A stretch of 64,000 nt of DNA from a plasmid, in the NCBI RefSeq assembly GCF_056746865.1, contig NZ_JBWKMP010000005.1; one strand, 5' to 3'. This document shows positions 9,001 to 12,000 of this stretch, one piece after another. The first letter of the stretch is position 1. The number at the start of each line of letters is the position of its first letter. The position numbers are program-made.

Positions 9001-12000
9001 CACGATATAATTACGGTAATGACCTGGAAAAAGTATTAAACGTTCTTTCTGGTTTATCTGGTCTGGTATTTGAAGTGATAGGTAACTGGGTATGGATTAG
9101 TGGAGAAACTATTACACATAAGGAAACTTTAAAAGAAATCGGGTGTAAATGGGCGGCAAAGAAAAAACAATGGTTTTATCGTCCAGACGAACATAAAAGT
9201 TACTGGAATCGTGAAGAACACACGATAGAAGAAATCCGCGCAAAATACGGTACAACCGGACAGCGCAGGGCGACAGGGTGGCAACGCGTGGAAACCAGAG
9301 CGTAACCAGAACGGGGGCGAGAAGCCCCCGATATCATACCAGCCCGTCTTTTGGGGCATCGAACCCAAAAAGACGGGAACAGCAGCCACGTAGCAAAAAG
9401 GGAAACAGATGAACTCTTTTTTTGAACAATATCACCCTGTCTTTGAAGTTGTCTGCCGTATCCTGGGGAACGGCTGGCGCGTGAACAAACTTGATGATTG
9501 TCCGTCTCGTATAAAACTGACGTCACCGCAGTTTAAAAATTACTCTGTGCATATTCGGATGGAAAAAGACCGATTTTCTGTTGTGGGGAGTGTGGATAGT
9601 CGTTCCTGGAGTAGTCCGTATCATGTTTGTACGTTATCCAGGAAGCGGAATCCCGTTGATATAGCAGCCAATATCGAGCGAAAAATTTTGCTAAATGCTT
9701 CGCAGGAGGTGTTACAGGCGATTGAGTATGAGAAACGCCAGGCGGCAAAAAAGGACGAAATTCTGATCCTGAAAGGTATGTTATCGCAACTTGTCCAGCT
9801 TGAAAGCTGGTATGGGGCATTGACAGGCTTTAAAGCTGAAAATGGATTGAACGGTAAAGTCACCGAGCAGGGCGAGCGTTATGATTTGCAGATTAGGGGT
9901 TTGAGTATAGATCAACTTGTTAAAATTACAGGATATTTGAAACAGTTATGAGAAAAAACAAAGGGCGATTGACTTATTATCTTGAAGTGATTGATAAAAA
10001 ATACCATTTTGTAAAAAAAATAAGCAGTTATTCAAAGGAGTTCACTGACGGAAAAACAAAAAGAACAAAGAGAACGTTAAGTGAGCTGGTTTTTAATGAA
10101 AGTGAGGTCGAGGCAATAGACTTTACAAAAAATGGTTTAAGACCTGTTGATAAGAATATTCTCTTAACTATGGTGAAAGAATATAAGGAGAGTGATGCAT
10201 GACTATTGAAAATACACCGGAAAACATAAAGAAATTACGTAAAAAAATTGGCCTTACCCAGACAGAGTGCGGTGAGATTTTTGGCGTAGGCTTAAGTACA
10301 TGGCAGAAAAAAGAAGCTAAAACCCACAACCAGCTTAATTTATCGAAAGGTGAATTTGAGTACCTGTTATTACTTGCAGGGGAGCACCCTGAATACGTCC
10401 TGCATAAAAAAGCTGAATCCCGCTCACCGGAGGAACCGTGAGCGAGAAGAAAAACACCACGACGCAGAAATCTAAGATATACAGTGTAAAGGTTTATTTG
10501 TCTTTACATTGTAATTGTTCTTTGTCTTTACACAGTGTGTGTTTGTAACAGGGCGACTTTACCCAGTGCGCCGTAAAGCCCCGTCCTTCAGGTCGGGGAT
10601 ATAAGGCGCGGTTTTCCACCTAACTAGGTGTTTGCTGTTGTTCAATGTATTGGCGGATGATGGATATTGGCGCACCTCCGCAGCTACTGGCAAAATAGCT
10701 GGGACTCCATAAAACGCCTTTGTAGTAATACCTGACTGCAATATCTGGTCGATCTCGTCGCAATAATCTACTCGATACGCCCTTGAGACTGTTCACCAGG
10801 GTGGATATCGCCAATTTGGGAGGATAGTTAATTAGCAGGTGAACGTGATCTCGTTCTCCATCCATTTCAACCAGTTCAGCTTCAAAATCAGCACATACAC
10901 TTGAAAAGTAAGTGCGTAGTTTTTCTATTGCGTCATGGTCAAAAATCTGGCGTCGGTACTTGGTAACAAAGACCAGGTGAACGTGCATCAGGAAGACACA
11001 GTGCCTTCCACGTCGGATATCGGTTTCTTTTTTCATAGGCCAAAGTATAATTTGGCATATGAAACGACTACAAGCTTTCAAATTCCAGTTAAGACCAAAT
11101 GGAAAACAGGAGCGTGAAATGAGGCGCTTCGCGGGCGCATGTCGTTTCGTTTTCAATCGTGCTCTGGCGCTTCAGAATGAGAATCATGAGGCCGGGAACA
11201 AATATATTTCTTATGCAAAGATGACTTCCTGGCTGGTTGAATGGAAAAATGCTACTGAAACGCAATGGCTTAAAGATTCTCCCTCACAGCCATTGCAGCA
11301 GTCACTGAAAGACCTTGAGCGAGCCTACAAAAATTTCTTTCAGAAGCGTGCCGCTTTTCCCCGATTCAAAAAGCGGGGACAGCATGATGCATTCCGCTAT
11401 CCGCAGGGTGTTAAGCTCGATCAGGAAAACAGCCGTATTTTTCTGCCGAAACTGGGCTGGATGCGCTACCGGAACAGCCGTCAGGTCACGGGTGTTGTGA
11501 AAAATGTCACTGTCAGCCAGTCCTGCGGTAAGTGGTACATCAGTATTCAGACAGAAAGTGAAGTATCAACTCCGGTTCACCCTTCAGCATTAATGGTCGG
11601 GCTGGATGCTGGCGTGGCTAAACTCGCCACGCTGTCAGATGGCACGGTCTTTGAGCCTGTAAACAGTTTTCATAAAAACCAGAAGAAGCTGGCGAGACTT
11701 CAGCGCCAGTTAAGCCGCAAGGTTAAATTCAGCAACAACTGGCAGAAGCAGAAACGCAAAATACAGCGACTGCATTCCCGTATCGCAAATATCCGCAGGG
11801 ACTACCTTCACAAAGTCACAACGACCATCAGCAAAAACCACGCAATGATAGTCATTGAGGATTTGAAGGTCAGCAACATGTCAAAGTCAGCCTCGGGTAC
11901 GGTCAGCCAGCCGGGGCGCAATGTCCGGGCAAAATCAGGTTTAAACCGTTCGATACTGGATCAGGGCTGGTATGAAATGCGCCGTCAGCTTGAGTACAAG

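What the first reader, a model, noticed from the sequence alone, without database searches (positions are those of the whole stretch)
9409..10441. Translationally coupled three-gene operon ending in an XRE regulator, carried between two identical IS copies
Seen in sequence: ORFs of 180, 84 and 80 aa joined by 4-nt ATGA overlaps; the last is a clear XRE/Cro-type HTH; the first two have no similarity I recognise. The operon and the two module-driven genes form the ~3 kb cargo between IS609-like copies 2 and 3, which are identical and directly oriented. Inference: an upstream effector with a downstream HTH partner is the layout of HigB/HigA-like TA and several small defence or anti-defence modules.
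Basis: partly seen in the sequence, partly recalled or inferred. Interest (0 to 1): 0.65.

Follow-up and report, generated by a model that had tools for sequence, protein, structure and literature searches.

The report
Plasmid establishment operon with its own repressor
The three overlapping genes are real, but they are the tail of a conserved four-gene backbone operon of IncI2/IncX resistance plasmids, whose last gene most likely encodes the repressor that switches this and neighbouring promoters off after the plasmid enters a new cell; it is probably not a toxin-antitoxin pair and not transposon cargo.

Summary
ORFs 9409-9951 (180 aa), 9948-10202 (84 aa) and 10199-10441 (80 aa) overlap by ATGA. 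The last is an MqsA-C-terminal/Xre-type HTH, and the first two match no described family. The two flanking IS200/IS605 copies are 1748 bp, identical and direct.

The interpretation mostly fails:
- **Not cargo.** The window is an IncI2 plasmid. About 320 IS-free relatives carry the same genes at the same place. The two IS are rare secondary insertions 3' of TTAC.
- **Four genes, not three.** In 15 of the 19 related loci examined (IncI2, IncX1/3/4/5 and others) a J-domain gene precedes the 180-aa gene. No promoter was found between them in the window.
- **A shared operator.** The J-gene promoter carries a perfect palindrome over its -35/-10 spacer. The same palindrome sits in two further promoter modules here.
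- **Operator tracks the HTH.** Each plasmid lineage with promoter sequence available has its own palindrome (seven classes across 11 loci, an eighth at one distant locus) at 1-3 promoters. Palindrome class follows the HTH sequence, not the adjacent J gene.

Best reading: a repressor-controlled regulon on the side of oriT opposite the relaxase genes, the presumed leading region. It resembles ArdK/CUP of IncN or acr-aca operons. The 180- and 84-aa products have unknown function. A toxin-antitoxin reading is unlikely but untested.

The parts
8573..8789 (+). Promoter module in front of the J-domain gene. It holds a -35 TTGATA (8699-8704), a 17-nt spacer and a -10 TATTAT (8722-8727). A perfect 26-bp palindrome ATAATACATCTA-AA-TAGATGTATTAT (8702-8727) covers the spacer and the -10. 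A conserved 5'UTR follows, with two small hairpins and the SD CAGGAGA.
   Evidence: The same architecture, with a lineage-specific palindrome, occurs in front of the J gene in other plasmid families.
8790..9305 (+). J-domain protein gene (171 aa, HPD motif present, C-terminal domain of unknown function). It is the first gene of the operon.
   Evidence: J-domain hits. It lies directly upstream of the 180-aa gene in 15 of the 19 related loci examined, including relatives at 24-27% identity of the 180-aa protein.
9312..9377 (+). Two intercistronic stem-loops (9312-9330 GGGGGCG..CCCCC and 9343-9377). Neither is followed by a T-run on this strand.
   Evidence: RNA fold z = -4.9. The first hairpin is kept, with compensatory changes, in all families examined. 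No promoter-like site lies between 9305 and 9409.
9409..9951 (+). p180: an uncharacterised 180-aa protein. It has an N-terminal alpha-beta5-alpha domain of the secretion-chaperone/YbjN/PsiB type, a long helix, and a C-terminal beta4-alpha domain.
9948..10202 (+). p84: a fast-evolving basic 84-aa protein (pI 9.6; four long beta-strands plus two helices). It has no SD of its own, and its start overlaps the p180 stop (ATGA).
10199..10441 (+). 80-aa HTH protein related to the C-terminal DNA-binding domain of MqsA and to Xre-like HTHs. It is the proposed repressor of the palindromic operators. It has its own SD (AAGGAG), and its start overlaps the p84 stop (ATGA).
   Evidence: Covariation with the operator is shown.
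10480..10523 (+). Terminator-like AT-rich hairpin plus T-rich tail, 40 nt after the HTH stop. It is the putative 3' end of the operon.
   Evidence: a consensus match only.
7966..7994 (+). Second copy of the operator-bearing promoter. It drives the 109-aa gene 8057-8386.
12669..12697 (+). Third copy of the operator-bearing promoter. It drives the 97-aa gene 12760-13053.
5849..7596 (+). IS200/IS605-family element, copy 2 (tnpA on the - strand, tnpB on the + strand). It is inserted 3' of TTAC. It is a secondary insertion into the backbone and not part of the operon.
10563..12310 (+). IS200/IS605-family element, copy 3, identical to copy 2. It is inserted 3' of TTAC, between the operon terminator and the next promoter module.

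Best explanation
The three ORFs are the distal part of a four-gene backbone operon: J-domain protein, p180, p84, HTH. The operon lies on the side of oriT opposite the relaxase genes of an IncI2 conjugative plasmid, the presumed leading region. It is conserved in IncX1, X3, X4 and X5 and related MOBP/MPF_T plasmids.

**Proposed mechanism**
1. A near-consensus sigma-70 promoter in front of the J gene drives the operon.
2. The spacer and -10 of that promoter are covered by a perfect palindrome.
3. The 80-aa HTH, probably as a dimer, binds this palindrome and its two other copies in the window. Those copies sit at the promoters of the 109-aa and 97-aa genes.
4. In a cell that has just received the plasmid there is no repressor, so all three units fire.
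5. As the HTH accumulates it shuts them down. This is autoregulated, zygotic-induction-type control.

**The other products**
- p180 has a protein-binding, secretion-chaperone-like fold and is linked to the J-domain gene in 15 of 19 related loci. It most likely works with the J protein on a host or plasmid target through DnaK.
- p84 is a small basic protein of unknown role.

**Status of each step**
- Shown: gene order, conservation, promoter and operator anatomy, operator-HTH covariation, and the secondary nature of the IS insertions.
- Inferred: DNA binding by the HTH, repression, timing of expression, and any biochemical role of p180, p84 and the J protein.
For: **Backbone, not cargo**
- IS-free pPIB-3 is colinear with the window. 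The two IS account exactly for the extra DNA.
- The junction with the IS is present in 2 PLSDB records only.

**Conserved synteny**
- J, p180, a small protein and the HTH occur in that order in IncX1/3/4/5, a KPC plasmid type, pET49, Morganella, Erwinia and Mixta.
- p180 is found in 2061 of 72,556 PLSDB plasmids, 1860 of them conjugative.

**Orientation**
- The genes point toward the MobC and relaxase genes and lie on the other side of oriT from them.
- This is the orientation reported for leading-region genes (PMC11541004).

**Promoter and operator**
- The promoter is TTGATA-17-TATTAT and contains a 26-bp perfect palindrome.
- The palindrome occurs exactly three times in 64 kb (0.01 expected by chance), each time inside a promoter module.

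**Lineage-specific operators**
- Every lineage with promoter sequence available has its own palindrome at 1-3 promoters in the stretch examined: seven classes across 11 loci, plus an eighth at distant locus L026.
- A host factor cannot explain plasmid-specific sites in the same host species.

**Operator class tracks the HTH (11 loci)**
- Same-operator pairs share at least 74% HTH identity. Different-operator pairs share at most 68%.
- For the J protein and p180, different-operator pairs reach 99% and 94% identity.
- Mantel r is 0.72 for the HTH, against 0.55 for J, 0.37 for p180 and 0.57 for p84.

**Informative discordances**
- IncI2 and IncX4 share 99% J and 94% p180 identity but have different operators and HTHs.
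- IncX4 and Morganella share an operator and an HTH recognition helix despite only 50% p180 and 42% p84 identity.

**Relatives of the HTH**
- The HTH aligns to the DNA-binding domain of MqsA (2e-5) and to Aca3 (2.9e-4), both palindrome-binding autorepressors.
Against: - There is no experimental evidence for binding, repression or early expression.
- Part of the covariation could be shared ancestry. The number of independent lineages is small: seven classes, with two or three clear discordance events.
- p84 also differs between operator classes, so a role for p84 in specificity is not excluded.
- The hairpins after the J gene could terminate part of the transcripts. A weak promoter missed by the consensus scan could exist before p180.
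- That this is the leading region is inferred from the position of the relaxase genes. The nic site was not mapped.
- The T-strand does not fold into an Frpo-like single-strand promoter. Expression would therefore need second-strand synthesis.
- The functions of p180, p84 and the J protein are guesses.
Confidence: 0.6

Rival explanations
1. A toxin-antitoxin module of the HigBA/MqsRA layout, with the toxin gene first. p180 and/or p84 would be a toxin neutralised by the HTH antitoxin, which also autoregulates the operon. The module would stabilise the plasmid by post-segregational killing.
For: - The upstream-effector, downstream-HTH order and the translational coupling fit this layout.
- The HTH is annotated in some records as an MqsA-family antitoxin and hits PF15731.
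- Genuine TA loci (HicAB, ParE) lie nearby in these regions.
Against: - No toxin family or fold was found for p180 or p84.
- p84 is unrelated to MqsR (hhalign probability 1%).
- The HTH covers only positions 70-125 of the 131-position MqsA model. It lacks the zinc-binding toxin-binding domain and scores below the TIGR03830 cut-off.
- The operator lies before a fourth gene (J) and is repeated at promoters of unrelated genes.
- A distant p180 (L024) has no HTH downstream.
- p180 is strictly tied to the J gene rather than to the HTH.
Confidence: 0.1
2. An anti-defence operon of the acr-aca type. p180 and/or p84 would inhibit a host defence system (restriction, CRISPR-Cas, SOS/RecA or another) during entry. 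The HTH would be the Aca-like repressor that limits their strong promoter. This shares the regulatory part of the best explanation and differs only in what the effectors do.
For: - The genes lie on the side of oriT opposite the relaxase genes, in the template-strand orientation typical of anti-defence genes of leading regions.
- The layout (strong promoter, inverted repeat, small unknown genes, terminal HTH) is that of acr-aca operons. The profile hits Aca3.
- p84 evolves very fast, at 20-43% identity between classes.
Against: - There is no similarity to any known anti-defence protein.
- The PsiB match is one of dozens of secretion-chaperone-like hits and is not the best one.
- p180 is basic (pI 9.2), unlike PsiB-type or chaperone-type proteins (the comparison rests on my own knowledge).
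- The tight J-p180 pairing suggests chaperone recruitment rather than direct inhibition of a defence protein.
Confidence: 0.2
3. IS-bounded mobile cargo: the ~3 kb between the two identical direct IS copies would move as a composite element.
For: Two 100% identical, directly oriented IS copies flank the segment.
Against: - The segment sits at the same backbone position in IS-free plasmids, and at least 320 records match at 99% or better.
- Each IS is a clean insertion 3' of TTAC with no loss or duplication of backbone.
- The arrangement occurs in 2 PLSDB records.
- IS200/IS605 elements transpose as single strands by peel-and-paste and are not known to form composite transposons (established knowledge).
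Confidence: 0.02
4. p84 and the HTH act together as the specificity unit, with p84 as a co-repressor, anti-repressor or DNA-binding partner. Only p180 and the J protein would be the effectors.
For: - p84 and the HTH diverge together and are swapped together relative to J and p180. Between IncI2 and IncX4, p84 DNA is 51% identical and HTH DNA 59%, against 99% and 96% for J and p180.
- p84 is basic.
- Mantel r is 0.57.
Against: - Within operator class B, p84 is only 42% identical while the HTH recognition helix is kept.
- There is no significant fold match.
- In Arsenophonus the p84 position holds a different 118-aa protein while the HTH is kept.
Confidence: 0.15

Closest known systems
ArdK/ArdR with CUP repeats in the leading region of IncN plasmids (pKM101/R46)
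   Same: - Repeated promoter-bearing modules stand in front of several leading-region genes.
- They are controlled by a small plasmid-encoded repressor that also regulates itself and is thought to allow a burst of expression on entry (PMC6289460, which cites Delver & Belogurov 1997).
   Different: - The HTH shows no sequence relationship to ArdK or ArdR.
- The controlled genes are not ardA or ardB but a J-domain protein and uncharacterised proteins.
- The operator is a perfect palindrome inside the promoter spacer.
- The plasmids are MOBP IncI2/IncX, not MOBF IncN.
acr-aca operons (anti-CRISPR genes followed by an Aca HTH autorepressor)
   Same: - A strong promoter carries an inverted repeat.
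- Small unknown proteins come first and an HTH repressor comes last.
- There is weak profile similarity to Aca3 (E 2.9e-4).
   Different: - No evidence shows that p180 or p84 inhibit CRISPR-Cas.
- A J-domain gene heads the operon.
- The same operator also controls separate transcription units.
MqsR/MqsA toxin-antitoxin system
   Same: - The HTH is the closest sequence relative of the MqsA C-terminal DNA-binding domain.
- The small upstream gene overlaps the HTH gene, as mqsR does with mqsA.
- MqsA also binds a palindrome of the ACCT..AGGT type (PDB 3o9x, from my own knowledge). Operator classes E and G contain TACCT..AGGTA.
   Different: - The MqsA N-terminal zinc domain is absent.
- p84 is not MqsR-like in sequence or fold.
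- The score is below the NCBIfam cut-off.
Frpo/ssi single-strand promoters of F and IncI1 leading regions
   Same: Repeated regulatory modules stand in front of leading-region genes that are oriented with the T-strand as template.
   Different: - Here the -35 and -10 form an ordinary double-strand promoter.
- The T-strand fold gives only the short operator hairpin. It gives no long hairpin that rebuilds the promoter.

Membership tests
Type II toxin-antitoxin system (HigBA/MqsRA layout) | The upstream product belongs to a toxin family or has a toxin fold. | tested here: not met
   - No Pfam, NCBIfam or PADLOC hit for p180 or p84.
- p84 against MqsR gives probability 1%.
Type II toxin-antitoxin system (HigBA/MqsRA layout) | The antitoxin has a toxin-neutralising part besides the DNA-binding domain. 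For MqsA this is the N-terminal CxxC..CxxC zinc domain. | tested here: not met
   - The HTH proteins are 70-83 aa, and the window's copy has a single Cys.
- Only positions 70-125 of the 131-position MqsA model are covered.
- TIGR03830 scores 30.1 bits against a cut-off of 61.8.
Type II toxin-antitoxin system (HigBA/MqsRA layout) | The operator is confined to the module's own promoter, directly upstream of the toxin-antitoxin pair. | tested here: not met
   The palindrome lies before the J gene. It is repeated at two other promoters in the window, and at 1-3 promoters in each other lineage with promoter sequence available.
Type II toxin-antitoxin system (HigBA/MqsRA layout) | The upstream product is toxic when expressed without the partner. 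| not testable with these tools
   This needs inducible expression. The only indirect hint is one distant p180 without a downstream HTH.
Repressor-controlled leading-region regulon (ArdK/CUP type) | Several promoters of leading-region genes share one operator. | tested here: met
   There are three identical operator-bearing promoters in the window. Most other lineages have 2-3 in the stretch examined, and three loci have one.
Repressor-controlled leading-region regulon (ArdK/CUP type) | A plasmid-encoded repressor binds that operator. | tested here: inconclusive
   Support comes only from covariation: same-operator pairs have at least 74% HTH identity and different-operator pairs at most 68%. 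Binding was not measured.
Repressor-controlled leading-region regulon (ArdK/CUP type) | The repressor is homologous to ArdK or ArdR. | tested here: not met
   hhalign probability is 0.3% and 1.7%. The system is therefore analogous, not a member.
Repressor-controlled leading-region regulon (ArdK/CUP type) | The genes lie in the leading region, oriented with the T-strand as template. | tested here: inconclusive
   The position and orientation relative to the MobC and relaxase genes fit. The nic site and transfer direction were not determined.
acr-aca operon | A terminal HTH autorepressor, with an inverted repeat in the operon promoter. | tested here: met
   The anatomy is shown. There is a weak hit to Aca3.
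acr-aca operon | The upstream genes inhibit CRISPR-Cas. | not testable with these tools
   No similarity to known Acr proteins was found in the libraries searched.
IS200/IS605 family insertion sequence | Y1 transposase TnpA plus TnpB, insertion 3' of a short target (TTAC), and no target duplication. | tested here: met
   The tnpA and tnpB ORFs are and the RefSeq annotation. Both copies follow TTAC, and the backbone is continuous across them.
Composite transposon carrying the operon | The segment between the IS copies is absent from IS-free relatives at that site, or is found elsewhere together with the IS pair. | tested here: not met
   The segment is present at the same site without IS in pPIB-3, and at least 320 records match at 99% or better. 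The IS junction is present in only 2 records.

The most novel reading that the evidence does not exclude
The J-domain protein, p180 and p84 form a previously undescribed plasmid establishment system that recruits host DnaK to a host or plasmid target immediately after entry. The HTH and operator classes (eight seen so far) define 'establishment immunity groups', in the way phage repressors define immunity. A resident plasmid of the same class (for example IncX1, X3 and X5, which share class C) would then silence the establishment genes of an incoming one. In IncX3 the published T4SS activator gene virBR would come under the same switch.
Probability: 0.2. Interest if true: 0.75.

Novelty: new variant of a known kind. 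Interest (0 to 1): 0.5.

Why it matters
- **Clinical reach.** The operon sits in the backbone of the main vehicles of mcr-1 (IncI2, IncX4), blaNDM-5 (IncX3) and some blaKPC plasmids. It is in 2061 of 72,556 PLSDB plasmids.
- **An annotation gap.** Apart from the J-domain label and an occasional 'MqsA-family antitoxin' or 'transcriptional regulator' label on the HTH, its genes are annotated as hypothetical. My literature searches found no paper that describes them.
- **A testable model.** The comparative data give a concrete model: one small repressor with lineage-specific operators controls several promoters next to oriT. They also show a strict J-domain/p180 partnership that hints at hijacking of the host Hsp70 system during establishment.
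- **Possible consequences.** Early plasmid gene expression could become tractable in IncX and IncI2 plasmids. Plasmid-plasmid interference could be predicted. The 'MqsA-family antitoxin' annotation would be corrected.

Tried and rejected
- **Family searches.** Pfam, NCBIfam, PHROG and PADLOC found nothing for p180 or p84. PDB sequence profiles found nothing meaningful.
- **Exhaustive profile search with p180.** It gave only 123 clusters, almost all stand-alone proteins of about 180-200 aa, with no informative fusions.
- **VirBR of IncX3.** It was considered as the identity of one of these genes and rejected. It is a different 85-aa gene further downstream.
- **Frpo-like single-strand promoter.** Rejected for the repeated modules, because the T-strand folds lack a long promoter-rebuilding hairpin.
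- **Homology of the HTH to ArdK or ArdR.** Rejected.
- **p84 as a divergent MqsR.** Rejected.
- **Rfam.** It found only sok in the window.
- **Literature.** Searches for a described function of the J-domain gene or its neighbours in IncX or IncI2 plasmids found none.
- **Locus L012.** It was meant as a test of a hybrid HTH but is rearranged and has no operator, so it was uninformative.
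Full report
**1. What is at the coordinates**

ORFs 9409-9951 (180 aa, 'p180'), 9948-10202 (84 aa, 'p84') and 10199-10441 (80 aa) are present. Both junctions are ATGA overlaps. p84 has no Shine-Dalgarno sequence of its own, so it should depend on coupling to p180. The HTH gene has AAGGAG upstream.

The 80-aa protein matches only the C-terminal DNA-binding part of MqsA (Pfam positions 70-125 of 131, 1.8e-6) and Xre-like-HTH. In NCBIfam it stays far below the MqsA family cut-off, at 30.1 against 61.8 bits. 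A profile of six family members hits the MqsA C-terminal domain (2e-5), a 65-aa regulator 7xi5 and Aca3 (2.9e-4) in the PDB.

p180 and p84 have no Pfam, NCBIfam or PADLOC hit, no PHROG hit better than E = 0.07, and no meaningful PDB sequence hit.

**2. Where the window comes from, and the 'cargo' idea**

The region is 100% identical to many 60-65 kb IncI2 conjugative plasmids of E. coli and relatives. In one of them, pPIB-3, the gene order is:
- parA-like gene, on the opposite strand
- 109-aa gene
- J-domain gene
- p180, p84, HTH
- 97-aa gene
- hicAB
- further on, mobC and the relaxase gene

There is no IS on either side of the operon.

A direct comparison shows the window backbone is colinear with pPIB-3. 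Two insertions account exactly for the extra DNA: 5849-7596 and 10563-12310. Each is 1748 bp, the two are 100% identical, and each follows the tetranucleotide TTAC with no loss or duplication of backbone. That is the signature of the IS200/IS605 family. RefSeq annotates the genes as tnpA and an InsQ/TnpB RNA-guided endonuclease.

The junction between the operon's downstream flank and the IS is present in only 2 PLSDB records. 328 records carry the operon region at full length. The segment between the two IS is therefore ordinary backbone that was hit twice, not cargo.

**3. The unit is larger and widely conserved**

p180 is encoded in 2061 PLSDB plasmids, 1860 of them conjugative. In the 5.8-billion-protein collection all 84 relatives are unnamed proteins, and the named sources are Enterobacterales, largely plasmids. 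An exhaustive profile search of 1.84 billion cluster representatives finds only 123 clusters.

A J-domain gene (HPD motif present) stands directly upstream of p180 in 15 of the 19 related loci examined. p180 is followed by a small basic protein and the HTH in 17 of them. These loci are:
- IncX3, X4, X1 and X5
- a KPC plasmid type
- pET49 of Erwinia
- an IncN hybrid
- Morganella, Candidatus Erwinia dacicola and Mixta contigs
- a metagenomic contig with p180 at 27% identity

The four loci without a J gene are an IS3-disrupted Arsenophonus plasmid, a rearranged Pantoea contig (L012), and two contigs too short to show the upstream region. One distant contig (L024, p180 at 24% identity) keeps the J-p180 pair but has no HTH downstream.

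In the window no promoter-like site lies between the J stop (9305) and the p180 start (9409). That spacer holds two strong stem-loops without a T-run (z = -4.9). The first, GGGGGCG-loop-CCCCC, is kept in every family with compensatory changes. A terminator-like hairpin follows the HTH gene at 10480-10523.

I therefore read the unit as a four-gene operon, 8790-10441.

In all complete plasmids examined the operon lies between the replication gene and the relaxosome genes and points toward them. It thus sits on the side of oriT opposite the relaxase genes, with the transferred strand as template. This is the arrangement reported for leading-region genes (PMC11541004). The transfer direction itself is inferred, not shown.

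**4. The promoter modules and the operator**

The 109-aa gene, the J gene and the 97-aa gene are each preceded by the same ~220-nt module. It contains TTGATA-17-TATTAT, a 10-of-12 match to the sigma-70 consensus.

A perfect 26-bp palindrome, ATAATACATCTA-AA-TAGATGTATTAT, covers the spacer and the -10. A conserved 5'UTR follows, with two small hairpins. The palindrome core occurs exactly three times in 64 kb, against 0.01 expected by chance, and always in these modules.

The transferred strand does not fold into a long Frpo-like hairpin. Only the operator hairpin forms. So this looks like an ordinary double-strand promoter under a dimeric repressor.

**5. Comparative test of who binds it**

In front of the J gene of every other family the same architecture recurs with a different palindrome. 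The same lineage-specific palindrome usually occurs again just downstream of the HTH gene, in the promoter of the next unit, and sometimes at a third promoter.

| Class | Operator half-site | Where found |
|---|---|---|
| A | ATACATCT | IncI2 |
| B | ATACGAC(C/T) | IncX4, Morganella |
| C | TACCATCA | IncX1, X3 and X5; Mixta; Pantoea |
| D | TACCGCA(C/T) | KPC plasmid type, pET49 |
| E | ATACCTCA | Candidatus Erwinia dacicola |
| F | ATAGGTCA | Pantoea sp. |
| G | ATACCTGCA | IncN hybrid |
| H | ACTCCCGA | distant metagenomic contig |

Because these plasmids share hosts, a host factor cannot explain plasmid-specific sites.

Across the 11 loci with complete data, identities divide as follows.

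| Protein | Lowest identity among same-operator pairs | Highest identity among different-operator pairs | Mantel r |
|---|---|---|---|
| HTH | 74% | 68% | 0.72 |
| J protein | 68% | 99% | 0.55 |
| p180 | 50% | 94% | 0.37 |
| p84 | 42% | 43% | 0.57 |

Only the HTH separates the two kinds of pairs cleanly.

The informative cases are these:
- **IncI2 against IncX4.** DNA identity is 99% for J, 98% for the spacer and 96% for p180. It is 69% for the promoter, 51% for p84 and 59% for the HTH, and the operators differ.
- **IncX4 against Morganella.** p180 is 50% and p84 is 42% identical. They share the operator, and the recognition-helix region is nearly identical: GLR(T/G)WQKKEEVNTQNSQ.
- **Candidatus Erwinia dacicola against the KPC type.** J is 83-85% and p180 is 81% identical. 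The HTH is 55-57% identical and the operator differs.

The residues that vary between classes align with the MqsA segment VNAFSR. In the MqsA-DNA structure (3o9x) that segment carries the base-contacting Asn97 and Arg101. This last point comes from my own knowledge and was not tested here.

I conclude that the HTH is the best candidate for the operator-binding repressor. This is an inference from covariation, and the number of independent lineages is modest.

**6. The other two proteins**

*p180.* The model is confident (pLDDT 93). It has an N-terminal alpha-beta5-alpha domain, a 30-residue helix and a C-terminal beta4-alpha domain.
- Foldseek finds only uncharacterised proteins, including actinomycete ones at TM about 0.7.
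- The invariant residues are mostly hydrophobic, and no catalytic constellation is evident.
- p180 is basic (pI 9.2), unlike classical secretion chaperones. That comparison rests on my own knowledge.
- Its tightest evolutionary link is to the J-domain gene. This suggests, at low confidence, that it acts as a partner or adaptor of the J protein toward host DnaK.

**7. Comparison with known systems**

- **Closest analogue.** In regulatory terms this is the ArdK/CUP system of IncN plasmids. There, repeated promoter modules of leading-region genes are repressed by a small plasmid protein that also controls itself (PMC6289460). The HTH is not homologous to ArdK or ArdR, so it is an analogue and not a member.
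- **acr-aca operons.** The operon layout also parallels these.
- **MqsA.** The HTH is the closest sequence relative of the MqsA DNA-binding domain. The defining toxin-binding domain and the MqsR partner are missing.
- **Toxin-antitoxin reading.** It fails three testable criteria (toxin family or fold, neutralising domain, private operator), although toxicity itself was not testable.
- **VirBR.** The published IncX3 regulator is a different gene further downstream. In IncX3 the second operator-bearing promoter heads the unit that ends with virBR.

**8. Verdict**

- The 'cargo' and 'TA' interpretations are not supported.
- The 'operon of unknown proteins closed by an HTH partner' idea survives in modified form.
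- Best explanation: a repressor-controlled establishment regulon next to oriT, with confidence about 0.6 for the regulatory part and much lower for any effector function.
- My searches of the held paper library found no paper describing these genes or this operator. The library is incomplete, so this is not proof of novelty.
- I rate it a new variant of a known kind, of moderate interest. It sits in the backbone of clinically dominant resistance plasmids and is directly testable.

Noticed in passing
window 7614-8062 and 12316-12765 (also L001 7317-7766 and 10269-10718): A ~450-nt repeat has an upstream half that is GC-rich (61% against 43% for the plasmid). As single-stranded DNA of the transferred strand it is highly structured (z = -6.1). 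Both new IS copies inserted about 5-20 nt upstream of it, at TTAC. What this GC-rich part does is unknown; a primosome or ssi site, or a binding platform, are possibilities.
   Followed up: partly
window 9312-9330; the same position in L002, L008, L013, L014, L021-L024 and L026: A GC-rich stem-loop (GGGGGCG-GNRA-like loop-CCCCC) directly after the J-gene stop is kept in all plasmid families, with compensatory changes in the most distant ones. No T-run follows it. It could be an mRNA stabiliser, a processing site or an attenuator.
   Followed up: partly
L006 7055-7972 (IncX3 plasmid pMyNCGM036): In IncX3 the second operator-bearing promoter (TACCATCA palindrome) heads a unit of three small genes. 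The last of them is virBR, the published activator of the T4SS regulator actX. The HTH studied here may therefore control conjugation genes indirectly.
   Followed up: no
window 8500-10562 against IncX4 (L018 + L007): There is a sharp mosaic between IncI2 and IncX4 mcr-1 plasmids. DNA identity is 99% for the J gene, 98% for the spacer and 96% for p180. It is 69% for the promoter, 51% for p84 and 59% for the HTH. This indicates recent exchange of the J-p180 block, or a swap of the regulatory parts.
   Followed up: partly
window 2255-3509: A third IS200/IS605 copy lies in inverted orientation and is only 94% identical to the other two. It is the copy that ordinary IncI2 plasmids already carry (L001 2807-4496). 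The two identical copies are therefore newcomers of a related but distinct element. Related sequences occur in 5015 of 5426 complete E. coli genomes.
   Followed up: partly
window 3604-3775: A sok antisense RNA (Rfam RF01794, 98 bits) lies at the position where related plasmids annotate a hok/gef-type toxin gene. It is a classical type I TA locus close to the replication region.
   Followed up: no
window 10480-10513 and 5800-5848; upstream of the J promoter in L006, L020 and L023: There are recurrent CTTTACA-n-TGTAAAG-type palindromes. One doubles as the putative operon terminator, and both IS insertion sites lie just beyond such a motif. They may be sites for another DNA-binding protein, or simply AT-rich hairpins.
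   Followed up: no
window 8057-8386 and 12760-13053: The two other genes under the same operator-bearing promoter (109 aa and 97 aa) have no Pfam or NCBIfam family. They match only PHROGs of unknown function (phrog_37844 at 3e-14 and phrog_2061 at 2e-9), so relatives occur in phages.
   Followed up: partly
window 13547-14139: A hicA/hicB toxin-antitoxin pair, with a 4-nt overlap, lies further along toward oriT. It is a genuine TA locus for comparison with the operon studied.
   Followed up: no
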